A DNA stretch of 64,000 nt from Pirellulaceae bacterium. GTDB taxonomy: Bacteria > Planctomycetota > Planctomycetia > Pirellulales > Pirellulaceae. How positions within the stretch are numbered: the stretch's first letter is position 1; each line of letters opens with the position of its first letter. The DNA is taken from contig DAORMC010000002.1 in assembly GCA_035440305.1 (NCBI GenBank), positions 1,295 to 65,294 on the forward strand. The letters run 5' to 3'. The translations under genes were made by a program, and so were the position numbers. This document shows, one piece after another, positions 72 to 44,770 of the stretch. The notes beneath the pieces were generated by a model. The model was given only the letters and a program-made list of their open reading frames with translations, had not been told where the DNA came from and did not search any database.

Positions 72-614
72 ATGTCCGAACGGTCCGACTTTCGACAGCC
101 GCCGCAGCGAGACGAGTACTTCGAGTACTACGCGAAGTACGTCGATCGGGTCCCGGAGGGGGATATCCGCGTGCTGCTGGACGAACAGGTCCGAACGCTG
201 CGGGAGCTCTTCGACGGAGTGTCGGAAACGACGGCATCGATCGTGCATCCGCCGTCGACCTGGACCTTGAAGCAGGTGGTCGGCCATCTGATCGACGCCG
301 AACGGATCTTCGCGGAGCGCCTGCATCATTTCGCGATGGGGGATCTGCAGCCGTTACCCGGCATGAACCAGGAGGAGTACGTCGCGCACGCCGACTACGA
401 GACGCCGTCGCTCGCGACGCTGGTCGACGAGTTGGTGCTGCTCCGACAGGCGAACGCCTTGCTGCTGCGGCGTCTGAAGCCGACCGATCTGGCGGCGCGA
501 GGGGAAGCATCGGGGCACCCGGTGACGGTCCGAGCCCTGGCCTGGATGCTCGTCGGGCACATCGAACACCACCTGACGATCGTCCGGCGCCGGCTGGCAG
601 AGAAAGGGGACTGA
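72..614 (+). CDS. DinB-family (DinB_2/YfiT-like) putative metal-dependent hydrolase
   Basis: 180-aa ORF. The His-containing helices 'GHLIDAERIF' and 'VGHIEHHLTIV' and the N-terminal 'YFEYYAKYV' fit the four-helix DinB fold. No competing ORF has recognisable content. Confidence 0.7.
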   Translation: MSERSDFRQPPQRDEYFEYYAKYVDRVPEGDIRVLLDEQVRTLRELFDGVSETTASIVHPPSTWTLKQVVGHLIDAERIFAERLHHFAMGDLQPLPGMNQEEYVAHADYETPSLATLVDELVLLRQANALLLRRLKPTDLAARGEASGHPVTVRALAWMLVGHIEHHLTIVRRRLAEKGD

Positions 615-981
615 CGGAACCCTCGAAGCGGCGTGGCAGGACCGACCGATGGCGTATTGGGCGAGCCCGTTCTTCGTAGGCACGATCATTCGGCATCGGT
701 CGGTCGTGAAGTCGATTGCCGCGAACGGGATTCGCTGCTTACACTCGGCCGATCGAAGTAGGGGCAGACTTCGGTCAGACGGCTCGGCGTCCGGAGACGG
801 AGACCGAACCGGTCGAGATCGTTCGTCGGATGATCGTAAGCGGCCGTGAGCTGTCGCGCGCCGAATCGTGGCAAGTGACGATCTCATGACGCGATCGCCG
901 ACGGCCCCTGTCTCGACTCGGTCTCGGGCTCGAACTCGTCGTTGTTCGGCCCCTCGGCTAACGGCGGACGTGGTGAAGCGC

Positions 982-1614
982 ATGTCGGAATCGGAACCTG
1001 CCGGTGTCGATCAGGAGCAGTTCCTGCAGGAGCTCCTGTCCACCGCACGCCATCGGATCGAACAGGTCTTTCGAGGAGAGGCCGGCGTTTCCCGCGGGGA
1101 CGAGGCACGAATCCGTCAACTGGCGACAGGCCTCCCCACGGATCATCGGGTAACGACTCTCCTGGGTGCGCTGGCGTCGGCCATCATCGAACTCGGGCCG
1201 CAAGCCGATCCGGCCGCGGCTCGTTTGCCCAGCGACGTCGACGCTCTGGCGAGCGAGCTCGTTCGACTCGCCTACAACCGTTGGCAACGGGAGCGTCGCG
1301 CGGGGAATCGAATCCGCCACCAAGCCGAGGTTGGGGAACGCGTCCCCGAGTTCGGCGGAGATTCGCAGGACCCCCGAGCATTGGATTCGCAGCCGACTTC
1401 ATCGGCGCCGCCGGAAATCCATGCACACTTTCGCGACGTCGTTGACCATCTGATGGGGCAGCTCTCCGAAGGCGACCTGCGGATCCTTGTCCTGTTCGCC
1501 GAAGGGCGAACGTTGGGGGAGATCGCAAGTCTCGTCGACTGCCACCGGACCACCATCTCGAGAAAGCTCGACCACTTCGCGGATATCGTCCGTCGCGTGT
1601 CGGCGAAGGACTGA
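982..1614 (+). CDS. HTH protein with a sigma-70 region-4/LuxR-like C-terminus (first gene of the kinase-GTPase operon)
   Basis: ORF 868-1614; I start it at ATG 982 (MSESEP...). The C-terminal 'LSEGDLRILVLFAEGRTLGEIASLVDCHRTTISRKLDHF' is a region-4-type helix-turn-helix. No clear sigma region 2 was seen, so it is not called a true sigma factor. Confidence 0.6.
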   Translation: MSESEPAGVDQEQFLQELLSTARHRIEQVFRGEAGVSRGDEARIRQLATGLPTDHRVTTLLGALASAIIELGPQADPAAARLPSDVDALASELVRLAYNRWQRERRAGNRIRHQAEVGERVPEFGGDSQDPRALDSQPTSSAPPEIHAHFRDVVDHLMGQLSEGDLRILVLFAEGRTLGEIASLVDCHRTTISRKLDHFADIVRRVSAKD

Positions 1615-1696
1615 TGAGCGAGCCTTCGCCGCATCGAGAGGCCCGAGCGATTCTCGTCCGTTCGTCGAGTCCGTCCGTTCCAGATCGGAAGCAGTC

Positions 1697-4600
1697 ATGA
1701 CCGAACCGCGAAGCAAGGAAGAGAGCACGACCGACGATGCCTTTCGATCGCCTTCGAAGCCTACCTTCGCACGACTCTCCCCTTCGCCTGACTCCGACGT
1801 GATCGATTCCGATACCTGGTCGCGACGTTGCGTCGCAGGACTGTCCGAAGACGATCGACGTCGATTCGAACGAGCGTGCGATCAGGGAGAAACGGAGCTG
1901 CGGGGAGGGGCCGCCCTGGAACAGGTCGCCGAGCGGGTCGATGTTTCCGAACCGATTCGGACGCTGGTGCTGCTTGACCTCGCGAAGTGCGCCGTCGAGT
2001 CGATGGCGCGCGAGGCGCGCGACGCCCGAGTCGCCGAGATCCTGAAGACTCTTCCTTCGCTGAGCGGAAACGAGGGAGCGAGGAAGGAACTTGTCGGCTT
2101 CGCGGACGGGTCCGGCGATCGTTCGGACGATACCGAGTCGCCGGTGCTACCTCCGACTCATGAACTCGTCAAACGCCTCCCTTCCCCAGGCTTATCGAAG
2201 CTGTATGTCGCGCGTCGCACGAAGCTCAATCGTCTCGAGTGCCTCAAGCTGGTGAACCTGGCCGAGATATCTCATCGCGAACTGGCCGCTCGAATCGCCG
2301 ATGAGGCCGAGCGCGCCTCGAAGCTGTCCCATCCCGGTCTGGTGCAGATCTTCGATGCCGGCGAAATCGCCGGGCACTGCTTTATCGCGATGGAGTACAT
2401 GAACGGCGGGAGTCTGGCCGATCGGATCTCGGCCGGACCTCTGCCGTGGGAAGATGCGATCCGGATCATCGCGACGGCTGCCAGGGCGCTTGATGCGTTG
2501 CATACCAAGGCCCGGCTGGCTCACGGCGACATCAAGCCGGCCAACCTGCTCTTCACGAGGACGATCGAAGGAGAAGAGCTGATCAAGATCGCCGACTTCG
2601 GTCTCTCGTCCGAGTTGGTCGAACAGGCTCGTGCGACGTCGGGCGAATCCAGGGGATACGTCTTCGGTACCGCCGGGTACGTCGCCCCCGAACTGCTCTC
2701 TTCCGAGGCGCGGGATTCGACCGTACTGCCGTTCGACGATCGGGTCACCGCCGACATCTTTGCACTCGGGGTCACGGCCTACGAAGCGATCAGCGGACGG
2801 CTGCCGTTCCAGACCGGGAGAGCGACCGATCCGTTGGGAGTGCTGAAGCATCCTTTTCGTCCGCTCACCGAACTTGTCCCCGGCGTGCCGAACGTCGTGG
2901 GGTACGCGATTCGTCGCGCCTGTTCGGTCGATCGTCGGGAGCGTTATCTGTCCGCCAAGGAGTTCGCGCGAGCGCTGGAGGGTTGCTTGGCGAATCGGGG
3001 GAGCGGCGCCGTCACTTCAGAGGTCGCTCGAAACGAACCGACGATGAGCATCGATCCCGAAGCGAAGTCATCGAAGCGATTCGGTCATAGGCAGCCGATC
3101 GTCATCATCAGCGCGATTGTCGCAACGGCGATCTGCGCCGCCATCGGTTCGGCGGTCTTCTCCTCGCGGTCGCGAATCGAGACGAGTTCGCAGGACTCCG
3201 CCGAACTCCCGAACGAGTTTTCGGATCTTCGACGAACATCGCCGGCTGTCGTCAGTCGCCCCGAATTGACCTCGGACTCTTCGGATCTGAAGCGACTGAT
3301 GTCGCGAGGTCTCTCGCGCGATAGCGCCGAAGCGGTCCTCGAGGTCAACAATGATTTTCTGGTGGCGCTGCGAGGTTCGTCCGGGTCGAGCTCGGCGGCC
3401 GAAACCGTACTGAACCTGCTGTCGGAGGTGGACGAGTCGCGGATCGGCAGCGAGACGATCGTCGCGAATCCTCAGATCGCCTCGTTTGCCGTCTATTCCG
3501 GGATCGAGTCGCTGCCGGCGTTCCTGCACGCCGTGGCTCATCCGGACGAGGACGAGCATTGCGTGACGAATCTCTGTATCCGGCATCCCGACTCGGCGAC
3601 CGTCGCGTCGTCGGCGATTCTCTGGCTCAGACGCATCGCACCGCTGCGTGCCCTGCAGCGGCAAGGGCTCTACGGCGCGGATGAAGCGCTGCTGCACGCC
3701 TCGGGCGTTCCGGAATACGAAGCTTGGGTCGAGCGGATCCTGGTCGAGCGGATCGACCGCGATCCGGGGCGGACGCTGCAGTGGCTGACGATCTATCTGG
3801 AGACTCATGACGCCATTCGGGCTCGCCTGGAAGATCGGGCGTTCGCGGCATCGTTCCCGAGAACCTGGGAACGATTCGTCGCTCTGGTCGATCGAGACGC
3901 GCGAACGGCCGAGGACTTCGCGATCAACGGCGATGCCTGGAACGTGTTGGCGATGGAGCAGGGGGATCGCCTGATCGACCGACTCGGACTGTTGGCCGCG
4001 CCGATCTTCGCCGGTAGCGAAGCATTGCCGGCCGATCCGGAACTTCGACGTCTCGCGGCGGAGTACCTGTTGGTCGGCTATCGTCCGATCGTCGAGGCAT
4101 TGTCGGATGCCGATCTTCGGCGGAACGGCGATTTCCTGGAGTTGCTTCGCAAGCGTCTGCCGGCCGAGGTCCTGGCGGAGGTCTGCCGACAGATCAACGC
4201 CGAGACGGCGGCCGGAACGGGCCCGGCTACCGCCGCTCGTCTCGCAGGGCTCGGGCGAGATCAGATCGTGGCGGATCTTTCCGGCGAAGACCTGAATCGT
4301 TGGGCAGCCGAGGATCTCGTGCCCCAACTGATCTATCTGCGTCTCGGCCTGAAGCTCGTCACCGGCGACTCGCTCTTCGGCGTCGAGCGGCAGGCGTTGC
4401 TCAAGCAGATCGTGATCGATGTGGTGACCCAGGGAGTGCCGATCGCCGCCAGCCGTCTCGGATTGCCGGTCGATCAAGCCAATGCGTTCGCGCAGCACTT
4501 CCCGATCGGCTACGAGATCGGAGAGAACGCGGTCAAGGATGCGATTCGACGAGAACGACTCGACGCGCTGGTGACGATCGACTCGGCCCCCGAGACCTTG

Positions 4601-5008
4601 GACGACTCCCGGCGACTGCAGACGGAGCTCCACGATCATCTCCGCGAAATCGTCTCGGCCGTGACGTCGCAGCGTGGCGATGTCGTGCTCGACATCACCG
4701 ACAGCATGCGGTTGTGCGAGGGCCTGTCGATCCGAGACGAGCGAGTCCGAGGAGCGTCGACGATAAGGATCGCGAGGTTCCTGCGACTTGCCGACGGACG
4801 CCTTTTCCCCGGCGTCATCACCAAGGACGGAATCTTCGCCGAGGAGACGGTCAAGCAGTTCTTCGACGATCGCTGGATGACGCTCACCTCGAAGAGCGCC
4901 GACGGCAGGAGCAAGGAAGAAGCGTGGCGAGAGTTGGTCTCGGCATGGGTTCTTCTCGGTGCCGGTGGCCTTCTGCCCGCAACCTCAACGACGACGGTGG
5001 AACCATGA
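1697..5008 (+). CDS. Membrane-spanning eukaryote-like Ser/Thr protein kinase (non-RD) with a ~600-aa C-terminal region of unknown function
   Basis: Start chosen at ATG 1697 (MTEPRSKE), preceded by GGAAG. Catalytic loop 'LAHGDIKPANLL' (HGD at 2522-2530), 'IADFGLS' (DFG at 2594-2602), 'GTAGYVAPELL', 'ECLKL' Lys strand. One hydrophobic helix 'IVIISAIVATAICAAIGSAVF' (~3093-3158). Confidence 0.85.
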   Translation: MTEPRSKEESTTDDAFRSPSKPTFARLSPSPDSDVIDSDTWSRRCVAGLSEDDRRRFERACDQGETELRGGAALEQVAERVDVSEPIRTLVLLDLAKCAVESMAREARDARVAEILKTLPSLSGNEGARKELVGFADGSGDRSDDTESPVLPPTHELVKRLPSPGLSKLYVARRTKLNRLECLKLVNLAEISHRELAARIADEAERASKLSHPGLVQIFDAGEIAGHCFIAMEYMNGGSLADRISAGPLPWEDAIRIIATAARALDALHTKARLAHGDIKPANLLFTRTIEGEELIKIADFGLSSELVEQARATSGESRGYVFGTAGYVAPELLSSEARDSTVLPFDDRVTADIFALGVTAYEAISGRLPFQTGRATDPLGVLKHPFRPLTELVPGVPNVVGYAIRRACSVDRRERYLSAKEFARALEGCLANRGSGAVTSEVARNEPTMSIDPEAKSSKRFGHRQPIVIISAIVATAICAAIGSAVFSSRSRIETSSQDSAELPNEFSDLRRTSPAVVSRPELTSDSSDLKRLMSRGLSRDSAEAVLEVNNDFLVALRGSSGSSSAAETVLNLLSEVDESRIGSETIVANPQIASFAVYSGIESLPAFLHAVAHPDEDEHCVTNLCIRHPDSATVASSAILWLRRIAPLRALQRQGLYGADEALLHASGVPEYEAWVERILVERIDRDPGRTLQWLTIYLETHDAIRARLEDRAFAASFPRTWERFVALVDRDARTAEDFAINGDAWNVLAMEQGDRLIDRLGLLAAPIFAGSEALPADPELRRLAAEYLLVGYRPIVEALSDADLRRNGDFLELLRKRLPAEVLAEVCRQINAETAAGTGPATAARLAGLGRDQIVADLSGEDLNRWAAEDLVPQLIYLRLGLKLVTGDSLFGVERQALLKQIVIDVVTQGVPIAASRLGLPVDQANAFAQHFPIGYEIGENAVKDAIRRERLDALVTIDSAPETLDDSRRLQTELHDHLREIVSAVTSQRGDVVLDITDSMRLCEGLSIRDERVRGASTIRIARFLRLADGRLFPGVITKDGIFAEETVKQFFDDRWMTLTSKSADGRSKEEAWRELVSAWVLLGAGGLLPATSTTTVEP

Positions 5009-7542
5009 ACTCAGGTCGGCAGAATCTCGTCTCGGGGCGGCCGAACTCCGCTGCGACAGGAGCAAGACCCTCGAACTCATTCGCCGCGGTCCGACGCATC
5101 GTGCTCTACGGCCGACCGGCATCGGGCAAGACCTGCCTGCTCGCCGCCTTGGCAATGCCTCGGGAGCCGCATCCCGACGGGCACTCGTGCATCTGGGTCT
5201 GCGACAGCCAGACGATCTCGCCTCCGAGCGGCAGTCGCGAGAGCTGGGACGTGAACGACCCGACGGTCGCCAGATTTCTGGGAAAGGAGTGGCTGCAGCG
5301 CGCGATCGACGCGATCTCGGCCGGCGAATTGCCGCGAGCGAATCCGAACGATGCGACTCCGTTTCGGCTGCTGTTCGACGTCACTCAGACGAACGGCCGC
5401 GTTCAGCGCATCGAGATGATCGACTACTCGGGAGAGCTCGTCGATCCGAACCTCTCGGACGACGTATTGGCTCGGAAGCTTCTGAATCATCTCGAGATGG
5501 CGGACGGCATTCTGGTCCTGGCCGAGGCTCCGCGCCGCGACGAACCGCTCTACGAGCTGTATCGCGAGCTGCAGATCCTTCAGCAGGCCCTGGCGTTGGT
5601 GAACGATCGTCGCCGCAAGACCAGTGCCGATCCGATTCCGATCGCCATGTTGCTCAACAAGTGGGATCGGTTCTCGAAGATGGAGGAGTTCGAGAAGGAG
5701 ATCGCTCAGATCGAGGTGCAGGAGTTCATCAATCAGAAGCCGGTCGTGCCGCAGCGAGCGCTCTACAGCGTGCTTCAGTCGCTGGCCGGCTCGCTGCACG
5801 AGACGCCGTTCTCCGAGATCTTTCCGGTCAGCGCGTTCGGCCGGACACGCCGCGAATCGCGCGAGATCGACGGCAAGGTGCGGGAACTGGAACTCCCTCG
5901 CGATCTGGCCCCTCTCCCCTCGTACGGCCTCGAGGATCCCCTTGTCTGGATCAGTCGCCGCACCGATCAGCTCGAGCTGCACGAACTCGAGCAGCGAGCC
6001 GGTCGACTCGCCTTCTGGAAGCTTTGGCAGCTGCCGTCGCGGACCGGGGCGAAAGTCAGCCGCCATGCCGAGGAACTCCGGCGGCGCATGCCGAGCCATC
6101 TTCCGGAAGCTCAGGCCTTGTCGCGCGTGGCCGAACGCGGGAATAAGGCCTTTCGATCCCAGCTCACGACGCTTGCGGCGCTGGTCCTCATGACCGTCGT
6201 CGGGACGGTACAGAGTGCGTTCGTCGTTCACGATTCGATCCGCTATGCGGCCGCCAAGTCGCTGGAGCGGGAACTCGATGCGGGGGCGAATCCGACGTCG
6301 CTGATCACTCCGCTCGACGAATCTTCCGGCTTTCTGGCAACCTATGCTCGCCCGTCATGGCTTCGTCTCGCTTCACAGATACTCGTGGCGTCGCCCGATA
6401 CCGCCCAAGACGTGCATCGACGGCTTTTGGCGGCGATCGAGCACGCGAATCATCTATCGGCAGCGACCAATGAGTTCCGGATCCGCTGCGGCAGCTTGGC
6501 GGCCGAAGCCGAAGCGACTCCCGACCCGGCGAGAGTCCAGGAATTGCTGGAGCAGCTCGAGTCGATGCCGCTTCCGACGGACCCGCTTCTCGCCGATCTG
6601 ACGGGTCAGATCAAGGAGAACGCTGCCGGTCGCGTCCGCGAGCGGATGACGCGGGTGGAGACCGCCGTCGGCACCGAACGACTGACCGCGGCTTACTTCG
6701 CGGACATGCGTGAGGCCCGGCTTCCTGAAGCGGTCGCTCGACTTGAATCGGGCAAGATCCAGTTTCCTGCCGAAGTCGCGCAGCTTCAGGCGAACTTCAG
6801 GAATCAATGGGTGTCGATCCTCCACGCCAAGGTGGTCGAACATGCCAAAGCCGATCGATGGGACTCGATCGAACAGCTGCTCGGAAGAATCCGCAACGAT
6901 AACGGAATGGCGGGATTGGTCGGCGCTCGTGAGGTGACTGCAAGAGTCGACCAGGAGCGGAGTCTGGTCGCCGACTGGCGAGCCGATCGCGCCTATGCTC
7001 GCTGGTTCATCAGCCCGTCGCTCACGTCGGCACAGACCGAAACGCTCGAGTTCGGACGCGACTGGCAGAAACGGACGGTCAAGGAGTGGCTCGCCTACCA
7101 GCAGTTCCTCTCGACCTCCCATTTTTGGCGACTGAAGATCAACCGGTTCACGACGTCGAACACCGGCAGTCTCTTCGATCCCACCGACTACTCCCTGACC
7201 GCCTATCATCAGGAGAACTACATCGGATCTGGCTCGTTCTCGGGTCCGGCGGGTGCGGCTGACGTGACGCTGTACATCGACTGCAACGACGTCGCCGGCC
7301 GCCCCGGTGACCCACTGACGTTCCGATTCAGCGCACGGACCACGAACTGGTTGGTGGAGAACATCTCGTTCCAAGGAGAGCTCAGCGGTGCGGCGATGAG
7401 CTTGACCTCGGAGTCGTGGGTACGGATAAGGACTCCGGCCGATTACCCGAACCCTGAGATTCGCGTGAGACTCGAGCCGGTCGGATTCACGATCCCTTCG
7501 GAACCGCAACTCCCCACCGCACAGGATCCCGACATCCGATGA
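5005..7542 (+). CDS. Membrane-anchored Ras-like (TRAFAC) GTPase with a long helical plus beta-rich C-terminal region
   Basis: ATG 5005 overlaps the kinase stop (ATGA). G1 'GRPASGKT' (5110-5133), G3 'DYSGE' (5422-5436), G4 'NKWD' (5656-5667), G5-like 'VSAF' (~5827-5838). Hydrophobic helix 'LTTLAALVLMTVVGTVQSAFVV' (~6163-6228). The ORF-track extension 4300-5004 overlaps the kinase in another frame and is Arg-rich. Confidence 0.8.
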   Translation: MNSGRQNLVSGRPNSAATGARPSNSFAAVRRIVLYGRPASGKTCLLAALAMPREPHPDGHSCIWVCDSQTISPPSGSRESWDVNDPTVARFLGKEWLQRAIDAISAGELPRANPNDATPFRLLFDVTQTNGRVQRIEMIDYSGELVDPNLSDDVLARKLLNHLEMADGILVLAEAPRRDEPLYELYRELQILQQALALVNDRRRKTSADPIPIAMLLNKWDRFSKMEEFEKEIAQIEVQEFINQKPVVPQRALYSVLQSLAGSLHETPFSEIFPVSAFGRTRRESREIDGKVRELELPRDLAPLPSYGLEDPLVWISRRTDQLELHELEQRAGRLAFWKLWQLPSRTGAKVSRHAEELRRRMPSHLPEAQALSRVAERGNKAFRSQLTTLAALVLMTVVGTVQSAFVVHDSIRYAAAKSLERELDAGANPTSLITPLDESSGFLATYARPSWLRLASQILVASPDTAQDVHRRLLAAIEHANHLSAATNEFRIRCGSLAAEAEATPDPARVQELLEQLESMPLPTDPLLADLTGQIKENAAGRVRERMTRVETAVGTERLTAAYFADMREARLPEAVARLESGKIQFPAEVAQLQANFRNQWVSILHAKVVEHAKADRWDSIEQLLGRIRNDNGMAGLVGAREVTARVDQERSLVADWRADRAYARWFISPSLTSAQTETLEFGRDWQKRTVKEWLAYQQFLSTSHFWRLKINRFTTSNTGSLFDPTDYSLTAYHQENYIGSGSFSGPAGAADVTLYIDCNDVAGRPGDPLTFRFSARTTNWLVENISFQGELSGAAMSLTSESWVRIRTPADYPNPEIRVRLEPVGFTIPSEPQLPTAQDPDIR

Positions 7543-9293
7543 ACGAGGTCGTCGTGATCGCCGCATTGAACTCCGGTCTCCGCGGGCGGCGAGGGCACGT
7601 GACGCTGGTTTCGAACCGACGAGCTGCCGAAGATGCTGCCTCCGAGAGGATCGCCTACATCACCGGCCTGATCAGAATGTCGGTCGAAGGGAGCGATCTC
7701 GGGGCCGAGTTCGTCGCGGGAGACGACTTCCTGATCGGCAAGGACTTCCTCGGAGTCGCCGTTGCCGCGTCTCAGGAAACGTCCCATCGATCCGCGCCAG
7801 AAGTCTTCCTGATCTGGAACTGCCGCACGTCGGGTCTGACGGAGGGGCAGCGCACGCGCGCTCTGGATTGGCTCCGGGAGCTCTCCGGCGATCGTGGAGC
7901 GCTGATCGGCGAGGTCACATCCGGAGCGTCGACCCAAACGGTCGTCTTCTCGGAAACGCTGAGCTCGTGGAGTGCCGCCTACTGCAGTCAACTTCCTGCC
8001 GGAAATGGCCTCCCCAAAACGGCTCACGAATCCGCTCGACTAAACGGATCGCAAGCCTCCGGTGTTCCCTTGCGCTGGACCAAGCTCATCCCCATCGGCG
8101 TTATCCTCGGTCTCGCTATCGGAGGCATCCTCGCGATCGCGAACCTGCCTCCCGGAAGGAAGCCCGAGAACGTGAAGGGAGATCGTTCGGACGAACCGGC
8201 GGCTGGGGATACCGACGAGGCACCGGTCGAATCGCTCGTCACCGATGCGCCGGATATCGATCCGTTCCGAAACTGGCAGGCCGATGCTGCGGCTTTGGAA
8301 CGAGGGTTGGTCGACGAGGCGTTGCCGCTCGACCGTGCCGTTAACGAACTGGCCGCCGTCGTCGACGAGCTGACCCGAGCCTCGTTTCGGAATGATGACG
8401 AGTATCGTCAGGCCTACGACCTGATCGGACGCTCGGCGCGAACGATTCGCGATCGCGTGACCAAGGGGATGGAGGCCGATGCGGACGAACTGCGACGCTC
8501 CCTGGAGTCGCTCCCGAACTTCGAGGACCTGAGAGAGTCGTATGAGACCGCTCGGGCGAAGGACCAGTTGCTCGCCGATCTCGAAGCGACGGTGCGGCCG
8601 CTGCCGATTCCGATGGAGTCGACAGGCGATGTCGAATCGGCGCGAGATGGATTTCTGAGAGAGGTCGAGGCCGCGGTCGTGGCTCGGGCTTCGACGCTGT
8701 TCGCCTCGACGTCCGATCGCGCATCGACAGGCGCCGTGATCGGTTGGTTACTGCGTGCTTCCGAATCGGAGTTCGGCCGGGAACTGGCCGGTTTCGGTTC
8801 GTCTCGACGATTGGGGGGCGTCTTCCGTGCGATTTCGAGACTCGAAACGACCGACGACGTCGAAATCATCGTCACGGCCGATGAGGTACCGTTCGGCCGC
8901 CCGGTGAAGTTCGTTCTGGTCGACGGTGCGGAAGCCGAGTTGGTCTTCTCCGGCGAACCCGAATCGAATCGCGGTGGATTGCAGCGGTTTCCGCAAGAGT
9001 CGGGCCGAGGCCGCTGGACGGTTCGCGGCGTCACTCTGAAGAACCTGTTGGCCTGTCGGCGGATCATCGTCGTTCTGGCGGCTCGCGGTCCGCGGTTCGA
9101 GTTCGAGTTCGATCACCGAGTTCTCGCGAAGGAAACCGGACGGACGCTCTGCCCGTCGATACGTGTCGAAGAGGGACGGTTCGAGGGGCGATGCGAGGTT
9201 CTCCTGCGAGGCGATTCGATGCGACAGGTGTTGGCAGAGATGCACCGCGCATGCGAACTGCCTTCGGACGATTCCGCCGGAGGACCGAACTGA
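7539..9293 (+). CDS. Hypothetical single-pass membrane protein (last gene of the kinase-GTPase operon)
   Basis: ATG 7539 overlaps the GTPase stop (ATGA). It has a ~185-aa N-terminal module, then the helix 'LIPIGVILGLAIGGILAIANL', an acidic linker, a helical region and a beta-rich C-terminus. No motif recognised. Confidence 0.65.
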   Translation: MNEVVVIAALNSGLRGRRGHVTLVSNRRAAEDAASERIAYITGLIRMSVEGSDLGAEFVAGDDFLIGKDFLGVAVAASQETSHRSAPEVFLIWNCRTSGLTEGQRTRALDWLRELSGDRGALIGEVTSGASTQTVVFSETLSSWSAAYCSQLPAGNGLPKTAHESARLNGSQASGVPLRWTKLIPIGVILGLAIGGILAIANLPPGRKPENVKGDRSDEPAAGDTDEAPVESLVTDAPDIDPFRNWQADAAALERGLVDEALPLDRAVNELAAVVDELTRASFRNDDEYRQAYDLIGRSARTIRDRVTKGMEADADELRRSLESLPNFEDLRESYETARAKDQLLADLEATVRPLPIPMESTGDVESARDGFLREVEAAVVARASTLFASTSDRASTGAVIGWLLRASESEFGRELAGFGSSRRLGGVFRAISRLETTDDVEIIVTADEVPFGRPVKFVLVDGAEAELVFSGEPESNRGGLQRFPQESGRGRWTVRGVTLKNLLACRRIIVVLAARGPRFEFEFDHRVLAKETGRTLCPSIRVEEGRFEGRCEVLLRGDSMRQVLAEMHRACELPSDDSAGGPN

Positions 9294-9622
9294 CGCCACG
9301 GAACCGGTTTCCCGCGATGTATCGGGAGCATCCTGGCGATGAGGTCGGCGCTCCACTCGGCTCGTCCTGCCTGACGAGACCGAAGAACGAAGCGAGGATT
9401 CGCGAGAACAACCGACGGAACGCCCGAAGGACCGATCGCGACGACGAGCGGTCCGAACTCGATTCCGGTCCCCTCAACATCCGCAGCCCGTGATGCCGAC
9501 CGCAGCCGGCGATCCCGGACACCCCCTTTCTACGACATTCGTTTCGTGCTTCAATGGGCGCACGTTGACCGACAGCCGGTCGGTCGAGGGCGTTCCGGAA
9601 CTGCGTATCGAACGAGGGGTCC

Positions 9623-11059
9623 ATGAGCGTGCGCGTCGTCGTGGCGGAGGGAGACGGAGTCGGTCCCGAGATCACTCGCGCGGTCCTGAAGATCATCCGC
9701 GCGGCCGAAGCGCCGATCGAATGGGAGCCGATTCGGGTCGGACAGGCGATCTACGAACAGGGAAACACCTCCGGCGTTCCGGCCGATGCCTGGGGAGCGA
9801 TCCGCCGTCACGGCGTGCTCCTCAAGGGGCCGATCACGACGCCGCAGGGGAAGGGCTTCAAGAGCGTCAACGTCACCATCCGCAAGGCGCTCAACCTGTT
9901 CGCCAACGTCCGTCCCTGCAAGGCCTACGCCCCGTTTGTCGCCTCGCCGCATCCCGGCATGAACCTGGTCATCGTCCGCGAGAACGAGGAAGACCTGTAC
10001 GCCGGCATCGAACACCGACAGACCCCCGAAGTCCGGCAGGTCCTGAAGCTGGTGACTCGCCCCGGCTGCGAGAAGATCATCCGCTACGCGTTCGAGTACG
10101 CTCGCGCCTACGGTCGCCGCAAGGTCTCGTGCATGACCAAGGACAACATCATGAAGCAGACCGACGGTCTGTTTCATCAGGTGTTCGACGAGGTCGCGGC
10201 GGAGTATCCCGAGATCGAGGCGAACCATTTCATCATCGACATCGGAGCGGCGCGACTGGCCGCCAGCCCCGAGATCTTCGACGTCATCGTCACGCTCAAC
10301 CTGTACGGCGACATCCTCTCGGACATCGCCGCCCAGATCGCCGGCTCGGTCGGCTTCGCCTCGTCCGCCAACGTCGGCGAGCAGGTGTCGATGTTCGAGG
10401 CGGTGCACGGCTCGGCTCCCGACATCGCCGGACGCGGGATCGCCAATCCGTCCGGCCTGCTGATCGCCGCGACTCAGTTGCTCGTTCACGTCGGCCTTTC
10501 GGAGCAGGCCTCGGTCATCAAGAACGCCTGGCTCCGTACTCTCGAAGACGGCATCCATACCCCCGACGTCCATCGCGAAGCGATCAGCTCGCGCAAGGTC
10601 GGTACCGACGACTTCGCCGAAGCGATCATCGAGCGACTGGGAAGCGAGCCGCGAGTGCTCGAACCGGTCCGCTACCGGACGACGCGTCCGATTCAGGTCA
10701 GCTATCGCACGACGCCGACCGAGCAACGACTGGTCGGCGTCGACGTCTTTCTCGGCTGGGACCAGGAAGGGCGAGACCCGAACGTGCTGGCGGAGCATCT
10801 GCACCGGGCGTCGACCGACACGCTGCGCCTGGGGCTGATCACCAACCGAGGGGTCAAGGTCTACCCCGACGGCCTTCCCGAAACCTTCCGGACCGACCAT
10901 TGGCGTTGTCGCTTCAAGGCCGAGGCGGACGAGATCCCTTACGCACGGGTCATCGAACTGCTGCAGCGAATCGACCAGGCCGGCCTGCGCGTCATCAAGA
11001 CCGAGAACCTCTACACCTTCGACGGCTCGCCCGGCTTCTCGTTGGGGCAGGGGGAATAG
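9623..11059 (+). CDS. icd: Isocitrate dehydrogenase (isocitrate/isopropylmalate dehydrogenase family, long 478-aa form)
   Basis: 'VVVAEGDGVGPEI', 'LLKGPITTP', 'NVTIRKALNLFANVRPC', 'NLVIVRENEEDLYAGIEH', 'LNLYGDILSDIAAQIAGSVG' and 'FEAVHGSAPDIAG' are the canonical family motifs. Confidence 0.9.
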   Translation: MSVRVVVAEGDGVGPEITRAVLKIIRAAEAPIEWEPIRVGQAIYEQGNTSGVPADAWGAIRRHGVLLKGPITTPQGKGFKSVNVTIRKALNLFANVRPCKAYAPFVASPHPGMNLVIVRENEEDLYAGIEHRQTPEVRQVLKLVTRPGCEKIIRYAFEYARAYGRRKVSCMTKDNIMKQTDGLFHQVFDEVAAEYPEIEANHFIIDIGAARLAASPEIFDVIVTLNLYGDILSDIAAQIAGSVGFASSANVGEQVSMFEAVHGSAPDIAGRGIANPSGLLIAATQLLVHVGLSEQASVIKNAWLRTLEDGIHTPDVHREAISSRKVGTDDFAEAIIERLGSEPRVLEPVRYRTTRPIQVSYRTTPTEQRLVGVDVFLGWDQEGRDPNVLAEHLHRASTDTLRLGLITNRGVKVYPDGLPETFRTDHWRCRFKAEADEIPYARVIELLQRIDQAGLRVIKTENLYTFDGSPGFSLGQGE

Positions 11060-31649: not shown

Positions 31650-32864
31650 CTACACTGACTTGAGCTCCTCAAAATGTGTAGTTGCATGGGCGAGATCCAG
31701 TCGGGGAAACTTGTACTGCGAATTTGAATCGCGGACAAACCGATCTAGGGCCAGAACCACAAAGCTGCGCGGATCGCTTATCCCAACTGGAAACCCTGTG
31801 ACGTGGCAATTTTTACCGTTAAGCAACTCTGTGTTAAGCCCCCAGGACTGGCCTTTCGCCTCGACGAGCTTAAGCATGGGGGTCTCGCAGATATAAGTTA
31901 GCGGCGTCATGGCCAAACCATCATTTTGCCCAGTGAAAAGAACGCAACGCATGCGAAGGGGCTCAGCGTTGCGTGGCAACAGCCACGTGAAGAACGCATC
32001 TGGCGCAACTGGCTTTCTTATTATTACGCTTTGGTCCACAACGAAATAGTGGCACAATTCCTTACTTGACGGCATGGGCTGGGACTGAAAACGCGAAGGC
32101 CCCTCAGTCCAGCGCTCGGCAAAAAGCGTAGCCTGATAGTGAATCGTCAATAGCCCGGTTAACTTGTAAAACTGCTCAAGTACGTCGTGATCGCGTGTCA
32201 ATATTGTAGTATTCCTGCCGGCAGCAAGGGTAACCATGGCAGCCGTCGCGACCAGCTCTTCATCCGTGAAAACATTCGCGCCAACGGAAATCTCTCGCTG
32301 ACCTTTCCGAAAGATATGGAAATCTCGTTCGTTGCCCGCTTTTTGAAAGAGCGTGTTTAGCTCCTCCGATGAAGGCTGGCGACCCTGATTCGCGACGAAT
32401 TCATCGACGAAGGACTGTGCTCTTCGCTTCCTTTCTGCGAGGACGTTAACATACCAGTTTCGAAATACTCCGCATGGCACTCCCCACGCAGCATCTTCAT
32501 CAAAAAGGATCGTGGAGCTGACCGCCTCCTTGGCGTCATTGAAGACGGGAACCATGTGTCCGTTGTAGAACGGATTTGACCTCCAAGGCAAAAGTTCCTT
32601 CCAAACACCGGTGGTCATCGTAATGCGTTTCTGCCCGAGCGCGTCCCAAACGGTTTGCTTAACTTGATGGTCTGTGAAGAAGTTCGTATCAAGAAAGTAG
32701 TCGTGAGTGTCCTGGTCACCGGCGATGAATTCGGCTACCTGATCATAAGACACATGGAGCTTCTCCTGAACCAGCGGATAAAAAAGGCGATGTGGCGCAG
32801 TTCCGGCTGGCCGGGGCTGGGTCTTCTCAAGGATGAATCGGATCGTTTGGCTTTGCCTGGGCAT
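31650..32864 (-). CDS. PIN-like nuclease-fold protein with an unrecognised ~165-aa C-terminal domain, in a low-GC insertion
   Basis: Start at ATG 32864 (MPRQSQT); the 32924 start would overlap the upstream gene. The acidic PIN signature is read in order: 'YFLDTNFF', 'GVWKELLPW', 'FTDEELVATAAM', 'TTILTRDHDVLEQF'. It is the only long ORF in the low-GC stretch. Confidence 0.65.
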   Translation of the reverse strand: MPRQSQTIRFILEKTQPRPAGTAPHRLFYPLVQEKLHVSYDQVAEFIAGDQDTHDYFLDTNFFTDHQVKQTVWDALGQKRITMTTGVWKELLPWRSNPFYNGHMVPVFNDAKEAVSSTILFDEDAAWGVPCGVFRNWYVNVLAERKRRAQSFVDEFVANQGRQPSSEELNTLFQKAGNERDFHIFRKGQREISVGANVFTDEELVATAAMVTLAAGRNTTILTRDHDVLEQFYKLTGLLTIHYQATLFAERWTEGPSRFQSQPMPSSKELCHYFVVDQSVIIRKPVAPDAFFTWLLPRNAEPLRMRCVLFTGQNDGLAMTPLTYICETPMLKLVEAKGQSWGLNTELLNGKNCHVTGFPVGISDPRSFVVLALDRFVRDSNSQYKFPRLDLAHATTHFEELKSV

Positions 32865-32877
32865 CGTGATTTCCGGC

Positions 32878-34071
32878 TCATGTGATTCGCCTGTGGGCCA
32901 TCGCTGTCGGAGTCTGCGCGGCACAACCGAGGCGTCTTGCCTTGATCCGGCAGTACGGCGGGAGCGTATCGGCGAGGTGGGCGATCGATCCGCATGGAGC
33001 CCAGACGTCGCTTCGCAACGGTTCGTGGAATCCCTCGATCACGAACCCGACTCGGCAGAGTTCTCCGAGGAGCGTTCCGAGCGAGTGCGCGAACTCGATC
33101 GTCTCGGGTTCGCGGAGCGGGCTGATCGTCCCCTTGCCCTCGTCGCCGATCGACGGCAACACGGTCCGCCGATCGAGTTCGTATCGTTCGCGCTGCGGAT
33201 TCCAGACGGCTCGAAGCGCTTCCGGCATCTTATGCTGCGACACGTACGAGCCGCCGGTTCGGAGCACGCGATGCACCTCGCGATACGCCGTCGTCACGTC
33301 GGGCAGATAGCTGGTCAGGACCGGCTGAACGACGATGTCGATCGACTCGGATTCGATCATGGTCAGGGCGTCGGCCGAGGCGACGAACGACCGAAGAGAA
33401 ATCCCGAGCCTGTCCGCCTGACTCCGATCCCGCTCCAGCTGACTCGGACTCAGATCGACTACCGTCACGATCGCGCCGGCCATCGCGTACAGCGCCGCAT
33501 GAGTTCCACCCGCTCCGCCGAGCAGCAACAGTCGCTTCCCGTCGAGCCGTTCGTCGCGGAGCCACGGATCGAGTCCCGCGACGGCCTGCTCGCGAGTCAA
33601 TTCGGGAATCGTTTCGGCCGCGAAGCGAGGATCGTTCGACAGCCGGTCCCACGCGATCCGGTTCCGCTCGATCGCCATCGCCCGATCGACGAATGTCTCG
33701 TCGGATGCGGTCATCAGCGCCGCGACCGCTTCGGCAAGCGTCGGCGGATCCCCCGTTTCGAGTCGACGCTGAACCAATTCGATCGGACTTGCGATCCGGC
33801 CGGCGAGTTCGATGCGCGGGGGAACCGGTTCTCGAAGACCGACCCATCGCGCTCCCGCCCCCCGGCACAGCATCTCGCCCAGCCGAAATCCGACGGCGAC
33901 CGCCAGGCTCCCGAGCCCCTCGTCATCCGAACCGGCACACGCCGTCTCGATCAGCCGGTCCAACTCGGCGACCGTCTGCGGAGCGGGCAAGTGCAGCTGC
34001 CGAGCGATGTCGTCGACGCCGGCCGCGACGGCTCGGATCGTCCGCAGATGATCAGGATCGACGGCACTCAT
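32878..34071 (-). CDS. Class I SAM-dependent methyltransferase with a ~170-aa N-terminal extension
   Basis: Start at ATG 34071 (MSAVDPD). Motif I 'RLLLLGGAGGTHAALYAMAGAIVTVVDLS', post-I acidic residue, and 'IDIVVQPVLTSYLPD ... VLRTGGSYV'. Confidence 0.8.
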   Translation of the reverse strand: MSAVDPDHLRTIRAVAAGVDDIARQLHLPAPQTVAELDRLIETACAGSDDEGLGSLAVAVGFRLGEMLCRGAGARWVGLREPVPPRIELAGRIASPIELVQRRLETGDPPTLAEAVAALMTASDETFVDRAMAIERNRIAWDRLSNDPRFAAETIPELTREQAVAGLDPWLRDERLDGKRLLLLGGAGGTHAALYAMAGAIVTVVDLSPSQLERDRSQADRLGISLRSFVASADALTMIESESIDIVVQPVLTSYLPDVTTAYREVHRVLRTGGSYVSQHKMPEALRAVWNPQRERYELDRRTVLPSIGDEGKGTISPLREPETIEFAHSLGTLLGELCRVGFVIEGFHEPLRSDVWAPCGSIAHLADTLPPYCRIKARRLGCAAQTPTAMAHRRIT

Positions 34072-44730: not shown

Positions 44731-44770
44731 AACGACGTCGGCGGGGGGCGCCGATGGCGCAACCCCCAAG

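What the first reader, a model, noticed from the sequence alone, without database searches (positions are those of the whole stretch)
982..9293. Translationally coupled HTH / Ser-Thr kinase / membrane GTPase / membrane-partner operon with no named-system match
There are four same-strand genes (982-1614, 1697-5008, 5005-7542, 7539-9293). The kinase stop TGA (5006-5008) overlaps the GTPase ATG (5005-5007). The GTPase stop (7540-7542) overlaps the next ATG (7539-7541). These two ATGA junctions imply obligate co-expression. Each of the three large products has one central hydrophobic helix. That helix separates a recognisable or compact N-terminal module from a 350-600-aa C-terminal region in which I find no known motif. 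A eukaryote-like kinase hard-wired to a Ras-like GTPase and an HTH protein looks like a self-contained signalling module, or an NTPase-centred surveillance/conflict module. I cannot map it onto any named system.
Basis: partly seen in the sequence, partly recalled or inferred. Interest (0 to 1): 0.75.

Follow-up and report, generated by a model that had tools for sequence, protein, structure and literature searches.

The report
Kinase-linked three-part membrane GTPase module
Four adjacent genes in a Pirellulaceae genome encode an undescribed membrane-spanning GTPase assembly (periplasmic sensor-like protein, dynamin-like GTPase, small regulator) that this lineage has fused to a protein kinase and paired with a sigma-like factor; the three-protein core recurs in several bacterial phyla and its role is unknown.

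Summary
Four same-strand genes lie at the stated coordinates, both junctions read ATGA, and each large product has one strong transmembrane helix.

It is a three-protein module:
- A: the C-terminal half of the kinase, which elsewhere is a free periplasmic protein of about 640 aa.
- B: the GTPase.
- C: the partner.

I found A-B-C, sometimes with a fourth protein D or a second C, in about 60 loci. They come from Planctomycetota, Verrucomicrobiota, giant sulfur bacteria, Competibacteraceae and Desulfobacterota. The kinase fusion and the upstream gene occur mainly in one Planctomycetota clade. The upstream gene is a divergent ECF-like sigma protein.

- The model of B has a cytoplasmic G domain with invariant DYSGE and NKWD motifs. 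It gives weak DO-GTPase hits and its best fold matches are dynamin, atlastin and GBP. A transmembrane helix, a helical ectodomain and a C2-like sandwich follow.
- C is a tail-anchored cytoplasmic domain with longin-like topology and an invariant Gln/Arg/Glu loop. Its start overlaps or closely follows B's stop in most loci.
- A, C and D match no Pfam family and no solved structure by sequence.

Most likely this is a GTP-gated trans-envelope switch that here signals through kinase to sigma. A conflict system or a membrane-remodelling machine remains possible. It is a new variant of GTPase-centred multi-component systems.

The parts
982..1614 (+). g1: divergent ECF-like sigma/HTH protein (210 aa). 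It has a conserved 'LVRLAYNRWQRERR' helix (sigma region 2.4-like) and a sigma-70 region 4 HTH at about aa 153-199.
   Evidence: Searches give sub-threshold hits to Sigma70_r4_2, HTH_38 and TIGR02937. Across 9 family members, 8 hit TIGR02937 (best 2e-11) and 6 hit Sigma70_r4. The gene is found only upstream of kinase-fused A proteins.
1697..2146 (+). g2 N-terminal domain (aa 1-150). It is conserved only in the kinase-fused clade and matches no known family.
   Evidence: An iterated HMM finds it in 12 ORFs, all of them kinase::A fusions. There is no Pfam hit.
2162..3049 (+). g2 Hanks-type Ser/Thr kinase domain (aa ~156-451). It is a non-RD kinase (HGD) with Lys, DFG and APE present and a degenerate Gly-rich loop.
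   Evidence: Pfam Pkinase scores 115 bits. PADLOC and NCBIfam hits are confined to this domain. The motif alignment of 10 clade members is.
3098..3154 (+). g2 transmembrane helix (aa 468-486)
   Evidence: Kyte-Doolittle mean 2.42.
3254..5005 (+). g2 C-terminal 'A' domain (aa ~520-1103), predicted periplasmic. It is homologous to free-standing proteins of 600-690 aa encoded upstream of the GTPase in other phyla.
   Evidence: phmmer and an iterated HMM find 64 ORFs. The alignment is A4. There is no Pfam or PDB sequence match. Free-standing forms carry an N-terminal TM anchor or a lipobox.
5005..5008 (+). ATGA junction: g2 stop overlaps g3 start
   Evidence: The overlap is not conserved in relatives.
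5089..5904 (+). g3 ('B') cytoplasmic G domain (aa ~29-300). Motifs: P-loop G36-T43, invariant D140-Y-S-G-E144, LVLAEAP (E174 invariant), N218-K-W-D221 and S276-A-F-G279. An insertion spans aa 51-119.
   Evidence: Alignment A1 of 41 sequences. AF2 model with mean pLDDT 87.7. 25 of 41 members give weak DO-GTPase1 hits. Foldseek top hits are dynamin, atlastin and GBP.
6172..6228 (+). g3 transmembrane helix (aa 390-408, inside a long helix at aa 367-425). The invariant Asp410 follows it.
6292..7113 (+). g3 periplasmic helical bundle (aa ~430-703)
   Evidence: AF2 model. The region is conserved full-length in relatives.
7120..7479 (+). g3 C-terminal beta-sandwich (aa ~706-825) with a C2-like fold, followed by a conserved 'P.LP.W' tail
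   Evidence: Foldseek hits to C2 domains of cPLA2, Itch, NEDD4L, E-Syt1 and dysferlin, with E 6e-4 to 3e-3 and target-normalised TM-score (TMt) about 0.5-0.6. Alignment.
7539..7542 (+). ATGA junction: g3 stop overlaps g4 start. A tight junction here is found in most relatives.
7539..8003 (+). g4 ('C') cytoplasmic N-domain (aa 1-155). Topology is beta-beta-alpha-beta-beta-beta-alpha-alpha (longin-like). Q79, R84 and E88 are invariant in and just after the hairpin loop.
   Evidence: Alignments A3 and A6. AF2 model with pLDDT about 80-95 in this domain. Foldseek gave no significant hit, but 9 of the top 50 are longin-domain subunits of GTPase regulators.
8085..8141 (+). g4 transmembrane helix (aa 183-201)
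   Evidence: Kyte-Doolittle mean 2.56. Some relatives end right after this helix and are tail-anchored (L011, L016).
8142..9290 (+). g4 periplasmic tail (aa 202-584). It is lineage-specific, hypervariable in length and sequence across the family, and modelled with low confidence.

Best explanation
The cassette encodes a Planctomycetota-specific elaboration of an undescribed three-protein inner-membrane GTPase module, A-B-C.

**Shown**
- A, B and C are encoded together across several phyla.
- B carries every G motif, invariant across the family.
- The B and C genes are tightly joined in most loci.
- In the window's clade, A is fused behind a Hanks kinase, and a sigma-like gene precedes it.

**Inferred topology**
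- A is periplasmic, held by a TM anchor or as a lipoprotein.
- B has its G domain in the cytoplasm, and its helical bundle and C2-like sandwich in the periplasm.
- C has a longin-like domain in the cytoplasm, anchored by a C-terminal helix and followed by a variable periplasmic tail.

**Inferred mechanism**
1. The periplasmic parts of A and B, and C's tail where present, form a sensor for some state or ligand of the cell envelope.
2. That state is coupled through the single-pass helices to B's GTP cycle. The cycle probably involves G-domain dimerisation, as in dynamin- and GBP-type GTPases.
3. C's cytoplasmic domain sets the cycle, acting as GAP, GEF or effector platform. The invariant Arg84/Gln79/Glu88 loop is the candidate catalytic or contact element.
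4. In this clade the kinase on A's cytoplasmic end reads the same assembly. It phosphorylates the ECF-like sigma protein g1, as in known kinase-regulated ECF groups. The envelope signal thus becomes a transcriptional response.
For: **Synteny**
- The order sigma-like, kinase::A, B, C recurs in about 10 distinct loci at 24-59% identity.
- A-B-C or A-D-B-C is found in 22 further genome loci.
- In the reciprocal search that started from A, 23 of 26 informative metagenome loci carry B downstream.
- The GTPase-domain tree puts the kinase type in one Planctomycetota clade.

**Kinase link is recurrent**
- In L058 a zf-HC2, a kinase and a B-type G domain are fused in one protein, next to a membrane B.

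**Protein B**
- The G motifs are invariant and the model is confident.
- Its best fold matches in two independent libraries are Sey1p, GBPs, bacterial DLPs, EHD2 and giant-virus dynamins and atlastin.

**Protein C**
- Q79, R84 and E88 are invariant over 50 sequences.
- The N-domain is confident and has longin order of secondary structure.
- The minimal forms are tail-anchored.
- The B-C junction is tight in 36 of 45 loci.
- D-type loci carry tandem C and C' genes.

**Protein A is periplasmic**
- It lies after the TM helix of a cytoplasmic kinase. Free forms have a signal-anchor or a lipobox.
- D has a signal peptide.

**g1 is sigma-like**
- 8 of 9 family members hit TIGR02937.
- ECF groups regulated by direct Ser/Thr phosphorylation, without an anti-sigma factor, are established (PMC7826278).

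**Kinase**
- The catalytic residues are conserved across the clade.
Against: - No interaction, ligand or phosphotransfer has been shown. Every mechanistic step is inferred.
- The longin assignment of C rests on topology and on non-significant Foldseek hits (best E 0.5).
- A has no recognisable fold or catalytic signature, and I could not model it.
- In the majority of loci there is no kinase or sigma, so the output of the core module is unknown.
- g1 lacks a clearly recognisable sigma region 2.1-2.2, and all its hits are below family cut-offs.
- The kinase Gly-rich loop is degenerate in the whole clade.
- I found no conserved promoter motif upstream of g1.
Confidence: 0.42

Rival explanations
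1. It is an anti-phage or other conflict system of the GTPase-centred ternary kind, a membrane-embedded cousin of the DO-GTPase-GAP1 systems. On this reading the periplasmic parts detect an invader or envelope damage. The GTPase sets a threshold. The variable tail of C, or an unidentified partner, acts as effector.
For: - 25 of 41 B relatives give weak hits to DO-GTPase1 and 23 of 41 to DO-GTPase2. The invariant DxxGE fits the 'conserved glutamate in Walker B' of that family.
- The layout parallels DO-GTPase systems: a mostly helical component, then the GTPase, then a downstream partner with a conserved N-part and a hypervariable C-part.
- Distribution is sparse and patchy across distant phyla. 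Giant sulfur bacteria carry several paralogues.
- One locus lies next to Cas3 (L013).
- The cassette has somewhat lower GC3 than its housekeeping neighbours.
- GBPs, which are among the best fold matches, are immune GTPases.
Against: - Pfam detected no GAP1, GASH or FNIII component and no recognisable effector domain in 27 C, 32 A or the D proteins.
- PADLOC matched nothing but the generic kinase domain.
- The flanks are ordinary metabolic and housekeeping genes, not defence islands.
- Solo paralogues sit at fixed housekeeping positions such as coaD-tig-clpPX-lon and lgt-pdxA.
- No relatives were found in phage records or IMG/VR, and only one distant relative on a plasmid.
- A sigma-factor output is unusual for abortive-infection systems.
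Confidence: 0.25
2. It is a membrane-remodelling or tethering machine, a bacterial counterpart of atlastin/Sey1p, GBP or dynamin. On this reading B's G domains dimerise on the cytoplasmic face. The periplasmic C2-like sandwich grips lipid or the outer membrane. Together they shape or hold envelope invaginations.
For: - Sey1p, GBP1/2/5, the Campylobacter DLP pair, EHD2 and giant-virus dynamins and atlastin are the best whole-chain fold matches in PDB and BFVD.
- The C-terminal sandwich matches lipid-binding C2 domains.
- Carriers are enriched in lineages with elaborate envelopes. These are Planctomycetota and Verrucomicrobiota, and giant sulfur bacteria, for which envelope-derived internal vesicles are reported (invaginated planctomycete membranes are mentioned in the abstract of PMC8567305).
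- Solo B paralogues co-occur with a full module in the same assemblies, which is compatible with heterotypic G-domain pairs.
Against: - Whole-chain TM-scores are low (0.15-0.25), and no dynamin, GBP or atlastin sequence family is hit. The similarity may be only 'G domain plus long helices'.
- B has one TM helix, so G domain and C2-like domain lie on opposite sides of the membrane, unlike any dynamin-family protein I know.
- The module is rare within Planctomycetota: tens of loci among 185,579 species genomes, which is a lower bound. It therefore cannot explain a phylum-wide trait.
- It also occurs in Competibacteraceae and Desulfobacterota.
- The recurrent kinase and sigma coupling points to signalling.
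Confidence: 0.15
3. It is the inner-membrane core of an envelope-spanning transport or biogenesis apparatus. It would be analogous in layout to TssM/IcmF, which has a cytoplasmic NTPase, a helical periplasmic domain and a C-terminal beta domain. TssM pairs with TssL/DotU, a tail-anchored cytoplasmic domain with an optional periplasmic extension.
For: - B and C have an architectural parallel to TssM and TssL (the comparison itself is from my own knowledge of T6SS).
- Most of the mass is periplasmic: A, the B ectodomain, D and the C tails.
- One B relative gave a weak IcmF-related_N hit (E 0.008).
Against: - No secretion-system genes (sheath, tube, secretin, ATPases) lie in any neighbourhood examined.
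- The IcmF hit comes from a single sequence at a chance-level E-value.
- C's N-domain is alpha/beta, not the helical TssL fold.
Confidence: 0.08
4. The genes are merely adjacent and have no joint function.
For: Only the weak point that the kinase-GTPase overlap is not conserved and depends on the choice of start codon.
Against: Gene order is conserved across phyla at low sequence identity. Fusions recur (kinase::A, and kinase::G domain in L058). B-C junctions are tight in most loci.
Confidence: 0.02

Closest known systems
DO-GTPase / GAP1 GTPase-centric conflict systems (Kaur, Burroughs, Iyer, Aravind, eLife 2020; PMC7159879)
   Same: - TRAFAC GTPase with an invariant Glu in the DxxGE Walker B motif.
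- Sub-threshold Pfam hits to DO-GTPase1 and DO-GTPase2 in most family members.
- The partner is encoded immediately downstream of the GTPase, with a constant N-part and a variable C-part.
- An additional, largely helical conserved component.
- Membrane association.
- Paralogous GTPase copies in some genomes.
   Different: - No GAP1-N/M/C, GASH or FNIII domains are detectable.
- No zinc ribbons.
- B is a single-pass protein with a ~430-aa periplasmic ectodomain.
- C is a tail-anchored longin-like domain.
- No recognisable effector.
- The neighbourhoods are not mobile or defence-like.
- There is a kinase-plus-sigma variant.
Dynamin superfamily membrane GTPases (atlastin/Sey1p, GBPs, bacterial DLPs, EHD)
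   Same: - Best fold matches in both structure libraries.
- A G domain followed by long helical bundles.
- Membrane-anchored.
   Different: - No sequence-family membership.
- Canonical NKxD rather than the dynamin or GBP G4 variants.
- The G domain is smaller (about 270 aa).
- One TM helix places a C2-like domain on the far side of the membrane.
- It depends on two or three dedicated partner proteins.
Kinase-regulated ECF sigma factors (ECF43, ECF59-62 and similar; Vibrio EcfP-PknT)
   Same: - A sigma-like protein is encoded next to a membrane Hanks kinase that has an extracytoplasmic domain.
- No anti-sigma gene is present.
- This arrangement is common in Planctomycetes.
   Different: - g1 has only a partial, divergent sigma-2 region and falls below all family cut-offs.
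- The kinase's sensor domain is itself a subunit of a GTPase module, which I did not find reported for these ECF groups in the one classification paper I could read (PMC7826278).
GTPase plus longin/roadblock regulator pairs (MglA-MglB; Rag-GATOR1/Ragulator; SRbeta-SRalpha SRX domain)
   Same: - A small alpha/beta platform domain is encoded or assembled with a GTPase.
- The conserved Arg lies on a hairpin loop, as I recall for the NPRL2 arginine finger.
- Tandem C and C' genes recall heterodimeric longin or roadblock pairs.
- SRbeta is also membrane-anchored.
   Different: - The fold assignment is not statistically supported here.
- C is membrane-anchored with a periplasmic tail.
- No sequence similarity to any of these.

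Membership tests
DO-GTPase/GAP1 system | GTPase belongs to the DO-GTPase family (Pfam PF19975 or PF19993 at the gathering score) | tested here: inconclusive
   The window protein scores 18.0 and 18.3 bits against a cut-off of 27. 25 and 23 of 41 relatives give weak hits, best E 3.5e-6. The matches cover only the stretch from Walker B to G4.
DO-GTPase/GAP1 system | Conserved glutamate in the Walker B motif | tested here: met
   D140-Y-S-G-E144 is invariant in 41 sequences. The definition was read from PMC7159879. Which glutamate that paper means is my interpretation.
DO-GTPase/GAP1 system | GAP1 protein (GAP1-N1 or N2, M and C domains) downstream of or fused to the GTPase | tested here: not met
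   None of the 27 downstream partners hits any GAP1 model at E<=0.1. The predicted structure is a ~155-aa alpha/beta domain plus a TM helix.
DO-GTPase/GAP1 system | GASH helical protein or FNIII-repeat protein as third component | tested here: not met
   32 A proteins give no GASH or FNIII hit.
DO-GTPase/GAP1 system | Variable effector domains (nucleases, TIR, peptidases and the like) | tested here: not met
   No effector-type Pfam domain appears in A, B, C or D or in recurrent neighbours. C's tail is hypervariable but unassignable.
Dynamin superfamily | Sequence membership (Dynamin_N, GBP or atlastin families) | tested here: not met
   No such Pfam, NCBIfam or PDB-sequence hit for the protein or its 41-member profile.
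Dynamin superfamily | G domain plus helical stalk architecture | tested here: met
   Top Foldseek hits are Sey1p (5.8e-5), GBP5, GBP2, GBP1, DLP1/2 and EHD2 in PDB, and giant-virus dynamins and atlastin-like proteins (4e-6 to 6e-5) in BFVD. Whole-chain TM-scores are only 0.15-0.25.
Dynamin superfamily | Dimerisation-stimulated GTP hydrolysis and membrane remodelling | not testable with these tools
   Needs biochemistry.
Hanks-type Ser/Thr protein kinase | Pkinase domain above threshold with catalytic Lys, HxD...N, DFG and APE | tested here: met
   115 bits against a cut-off of 31.7. The motifs are conserved in 10 clade members. The Gly-rich loop is degenerate and the window protein has HGD rather than HRD.
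PD-T4-6 (and other PADLOC kinase models) | Match beyond the generic kinase domain | tested here: not met
   Nearly all PADLOC hits end at aa 430-490, the end of the kinase domain. One PD-T4-6 model runs on to aa 577. None covers the A domain from about aa 592.
ECF sigma factor (kinase-regulated groups) | Sigma-2 and sigma-4 domains above family thresholds | tested here: inconclusive
   The window protein scores 22.4 bits on TIGR02937 (cut-off 42.9), covering model positions 65-154 only. 8 of 9 relatives hit it, best 2e-11. Sigma70_r4 is hit by 6 of 9 and Sigma70_ECF by 3 of 9.
ECF sigma factor (kinase-regulated groups) | Adjacent Ser/Thr kinase and no anti-sigma gene | tested here: met
   This holds in all loci of the clade. 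The definition comes from PMC7826278.
Longin domain | beta-beta-alpha-beta-beta-beta-alpha-alpha fold with significant structural match | tested here: inconclusive
   The order of secondary structure fits. The best Foldseek E is 0.5. The Lokiarchaeal longin 8yqg_B gives target-normalised TM-score (TMt) 0.50 at probability 0.33. 9 of the top 50 hits are longin subunits of GATOR1, TRAPP and similar complexes.
C2 domain | Eight-stranded C2 sandwich; Ca2+/lipid-binding loops | tested here: inconclusive
   Fold matches have E 6e-4 to 3e-3 and target-normalised TM-score (TMt) 0.4-0.6. One relative gives Pfam C2 at E 0.021. The binding loops were not examined.

The most novel reading that the evidence does not exclude
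The A-B-C module is a prokaryotic membrane-dynamics machine assembled from the same parts list as eukaryotic trafficking. Those parts are a dynamin/atlastin/GBP-like membrane GTPase, a C2-like lipid-binding sandwich and a longin-like regulator, in places under Hanks-kinase control. On this reading it shapes or monitors envelope invaginations and internal vesicles in bacteria with complex cell plans (Planctomycetota, Verrucomicrobiota, giant sulfur bacteria).
Probability: 0.12. Interest if true: 0.9.

Novelty: new variant of a known kind. Interest (0 to 1): 0.68.

Why it matters
- Three of the four component families (A, C, D) match no Pfam family and no solved structure by sequence. The fourth (B) is only marginally linked to a family that has itself been predicted computationally and not characterised.
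- The module joins a membrane GTPase to a dedicated tail-anchored regulator and a large periplasmic partner. In one clade it shows a natural fusion that ties it to Ser/Thr-kinase and sigma-factor signalling.
- If the switch model holds, this would be a type of trans-envelope signalling in which a GTPase, rather than a histidine kinase or an anti-sigma factor, sits at the centre.
- If the remodelling reading holds, it bears on how bacteria with complex envelopes organise their membranes.
- The analysis yields testable handles: Arg84/Gln79/Glu88 of C, the DYSGE/NKWD motifs of B, and the kinase-sigma pair.

Tried and rejected
- **Word-seeded homologue searches for the partner.** Using the single sequence and then a 27-sequence profile, I found only the protein itself and one relative. 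An exhaustive search seeded with that relative (P0047) gave the alignment used for modelling.
- **Profile searches of A, B and C against PDB sequences.** Only chance-level hits.
- **A compared with the B ectodomain.** No relationship (hhalign E 0.38).
- **B's C-terminal sandwich compared with C's C-terminal region in the window clade.** No relationship. In Haliovirga the two ectodomains are clearly paralogous (blastp 1.8e-14).
- **My guess that a conserved ~180-aa downstream protein in sulfur-bacterial loci is TerD-like.** Pfam did not support it, so I dropped it.
- **Sigma-70 promoter and terminator scan of 500-9800.** Nothing above the shuffled expectation.
- **Search for a shared motif upstream of g1 in 9 loci.** None found.
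- **Phage and virus relatives of B.** None in INPHARED or IMG/VR.
- **Metagenome scan with the 32-sequence A alignment.** Rejected for lack of conserved columns. It was repeated with a 12-sequence subset.
- **Literature.** The Jogler 2012 paper and the supplements of the ECF classification were not available. I could not test whether g1 belongs to the ECF60 group described as having a divergent sigma-2.

Full report
**1. Observation**

The four ORFs are present on the + strand at 982-1614, 1697-5008, 5005-7542 and 7539-9293. The junctions read CCATGAAC and CGATGAAC, so both are ATGA stop/start overlaps. Each large product has one strongly hydrophobic 19-residue segment: kinase aa 468-486, GTPase aa 390-408, partner aa 183-201.

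An identical GTPase is on record from a Pirellulaceae MAG, so the window is planctomycetal. That record starts the gene 32 codons later, at '(M)LYGRPASGKT'. This start would delete strand beta1 and residues conserved in all relatives. I therefore accept the ATG at 5005.

The kinase/GTPase overlap is particular to this genome; relatives have gaps of 6-80 nt. The GTPase/partner junction is tight in 36 of 45 loci, and 14 of those have exact 4-nt or 1-nt overlaps.

**2. First annotation**

- g2 has a significant Hanks kinase domain (Pkinase 115 bits). PADLOC, NCBIfam and Pfam hits cover only that domain.
- g3 has G1, G3 and G4 motifs and only sub-threshold hits to DO-GTPase1 and DO-GTPase2.
- g4 matches nothing.
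- g1 gives weak HTH and sigma-70 region 4 hits.

**3. The conserved unit**

A homologue search with the GTPase found 45 clusters of proteins of about 830 aa. Neighbourhoods of seven of them gave two patterns. One was the same four-gene order. The other was a GTPase standing alone in gammaproteobacterial contigs.

I then fetched 76 loci from species-representative genomes using the GTPase alignment. I searched their ORFs with iterated HMMs built from the four window proteins.

The C-terminal half of the kinase (aa ~520-1103, 'A') has homologues in 64 ORFs. Most are free-standing proteins of 600-690 aa, with an N-terminal membrane anchor or lipobox, encoded just upstream of the GTPase ('B'). The N-terminal ~160 aa of g4 ('C') is conserved downstream of B.

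Fifty loci had enough flanking sequence, and three of them are duplicates. They fall as follows:

| Arrangement | Loci |
|---|---|
| A-B-C | 14 |
| A-D-B-C | 8 |
| sigma-like + kinase::A-B-C (including the window) | 9 |
| B alone | 16 |
| Irregular or degraded | 3 |

D is a protein of about 330 aa with a signal peptide and two C-terminal TM helices.

The reciprocal test started from A in metagenomes. It gave 23 loci with B downstream, many of them with D and with tandem C and C'. Three loci had solo A, and four were uninformative truncated contigs.

Carriers are:
- Planctomycetota: Pirellulaceae, Planctomycetaceae, Gemmataceae including Zavarzinella formosa DSM 19928, Isosphaeraceae, Tepidisphaeraceae;
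- Verrucomicrobiota;
- giant sulfur bacteria: Thiomargarita, Parabeggiatoa, Thioploca, Marithrix, Achromatium;
- Competibacteraceae and Desulfobacterota.

A neighbour-joining tree of G domains places the kinase type in one Planctomycetota clade, with one Tepidisphaeraceae outlier. The solo B genes form paralogue clades inside the sulfur bacteria. At least six assemblies with a solo B also carry a full module on another contig. The solo genes sit at fixed housekeeping positions: coaD-tig-clpPX-lon for B and lgt-pdxA for A.

A distant B plus C-like pair without A occurs on a Haliovirga megaplasmid.

**4. The proteins**

*B.* The 41-sequence alignment has invariant G36, G41, K42, D140-Y-S-G-E144, D167, E174, K219, D221, S276 and G279, plus D410 just after the TM helix.

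The AlphaFold2 model has mean pLDDT 87.7. It shows, in order:
- a G domain at aa ~29-300, with an insertion at aa 51-119;
- juxtamembrane helices;
- a long TM-containing helix;
- a helical bundle at aa 430-703;
- a beta-sandwich at aa 706-825.

Foldseek against PDB ranks Sey1p, GBP5, GBP2, GBP1, the Campylobacter DLP pair, EHD2 and RNF112 for the whole chain. It ranks C2 domains for the sandwich. Against viral models the top hits are giant-virus dynamins and an atlastin-like protein. Whole-chain TM-scores are low, so this is similarity of architecture and not proof of membership.

By sequence, 25 of 41 members touch DO-GTPase1 and 23 of 41 touch DO-GTPase2, all weakly.

*C.* The conserved part is a ~155-aa N-domain followed by the TM helix. 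The rest varies from nothing (L011, L016) to about 500 aa.

An exhaustive search seeded with one consensus-like member found 52 representatives. In the resulting 50-sequence alignment, Q79, R84 and E88 are invariant.

The model is confident for the N-domain. Its order of elements is beta-beta-alpha-beta-beta-beta-alpha-alpha, which is the longin order. The invariant residues lie in and just after the hairpin between the last two long strands.

Foldseek found nothing significant. Nine of the 50 best hits are chains that I recognise as longin-domain subunits of GATOR1, TRAPP and a Lokiarchaeal Roadblock-Longin protein. This is a lead, not a result.

*A.* The family is well conserved, with invariant Trp, Pro, Gly, Lys and Asp positions. 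It has no Pfam or PDB match and is unrelated to B. I could not model it.

*g1.* Eight of nine family members hit the ECF sigma superfamily model, best 2e-11. Six hit Sigma70_r4. The N-terminal part keeps only a region 2.4-like helix.

*Kinase.* The catalytic Lys, the HxD...N loop, DFG and APE are conserved in ten clade members. The Gly-rich loop is degenerate.

*A second fusion.* In L058, a zf-HC2 motif, a kinase and a soluble B-type G domain form one protein. It lies upstream of a 1307-aa membrane B. This links kinases to the GTPase independently and gives a literal double-GTPase arrangement.

**5. Topology**

This section is inference. The kinase and the G domain need nucleotides, so they must be cytoplasmic. 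A follows the kinase's TM helix, and free-standing A has a signal-anchor or a lipobox, so A is periplasmic. D has a signal peptide. Minimal C proteins end at the TM helix, so the N-domain is cytoplasmic. Most of the mass of the assembly is therefore periplasmic, with a GTPase and its small partner on the inside.

**6. Mechanism**

I favour a GTP-gated trans-envelope switch. The ectodomains of A and B sense an envelope state or ligand. B's nucleotide cycle is set by C's cytoplasmic domain. In this clade, the kinase fused to A relays to the sigma-like g1, as in ECF groups regulated by direct phosphorylation (PMC7826278).

Rivals:
- **A conflict system related to DO-GTPase-GAP1.** It shares GTPase motifs and a three-part layout, is patchily distributed, and has one Cas3 neighbour. 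Against it: GAP1, GASH, FNIII and effectors are absent and the contexts are ordinary.
- **A membrane-remodelling machine.** Supported by the fold matches, the C2-like domain and carriers with complex envelopes. Against it: the split topology and the rarity of the module.
- **A TssM/TssL-like structural core.** This is a layout analogy only.

**7. Context and novelty**

The flanks in the window are DinB, isocitrate dehydrogenase, SDR, an oxidoreductase, transglutaminase-like proteins, cytochrome c, an RND pump and a canonical ECF sigma. There are no mobile-element or defence genes.

GC3 of the cassette is 0.71-0.77, against 0.78-0.86 for its immediate neighbours (DinB, IDH, SDR, oxidoreductase). 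That is a weak signal at most, because two other genes measured in the window are at 0.76-0.77.

No phage or virus relatives were found.

In the library available I found no paper describing this module. The nearest described kind is the computationally defined DO-GTPase systems.

I rate it a new variant of GTPase-centred multi-component systems, with three unassigned protein families.

Noticed in passing
window 40694-40740 (+): Rfam match to the Acido-Lenti-1 sRNA family (49.5 bits, gathering score 37), in an intergenic stretch next to the RND pump genes.
   Followed up: no
window 44657-44966 (-): Cluster of three tRNA genes: Arg-CCG, Asp-GTC and Phe-GAA.
   Followed up: no
window 51573-54023 (+): An 816-aa protein that combines a CMD domain, EF-hands and an iodothyronine-deiodinase-like domain. 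This is an unusual combination for a bacterium.
   Followed up: no
window 32001-34371: G+C dips to 0.598 over 32001-34000. A 497-aa minus-strand ORF at 32878-34371 carries a methyltransferase domain only in its C-terminal half.
   Followed up: partly
window 5005-5101; public protein P0001: The public annotation of the GTPase starts 32 codons downstream of the ATG at 5005. This cuts off strand beta1 of the G domain and is probably a mis-called start.
   Followed up: yes
L058 308-6537 (Pirellulaceae MAG): One protein fuses a zf-HC2 anti-sigma-like motif, a Ser/Thr kinase and a soluble B-type G domain. It is followed by a 1307-aa membrane GTPase whose ectodomain holds about five tandem ~100-aa helical repeats.
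   Followed up: partly
L013 205-12982 (Zavarzinella formosa DSM 19928): The GTPase-partner pair has no A gene within 8 kb upstream. It lies next to a divergently oriented Cas3 helicase-nuclease gene and a 772-aa gene that matches no Pfam family.
   Followed up: partly
L085 6944-10370 (Haliovirga abyssi megaplasmid): A distant GTPase (707 aa) sits next to a 433-aa partner with the same layout. Their ectodomains are paralogous to each other (blastp 1.8e-14). There is no A gene, and the neighbours are housekeeping genes.
   Followed up: yes
L007/L022, L008/L062, L038, L043, L048, L061 and L104, L111, L115: Giant sulfur bacteria carry solo paralogues at fixed chromosomal positions. Solo GTPase genes lie between coaD and tig-clpP-clpX-lon on one side and prmA on the other. 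Solo A genes lie between lgt and pdxA.
   Followed up: partly
L021, L034, L035, L037, L040, L081 (downstream of C): In sulfur-bacterial loci two more genes recur after C. One encodes a 220-320-aa protein with an N-terminal TM helix and the other a ~180-aa soluble protein. Neither has a Pfam match. L021 and L034 also have about 4 kb of inserted small genes between A and B.
   Followed up: partly
L015, L018, L024 (about 800-3900, minus strand): A second, canonical pair of ECF sigma and Ser/Thr kinase genes is transcribed divergently just upstream of the cassette in three related loci.
   Followed up: no
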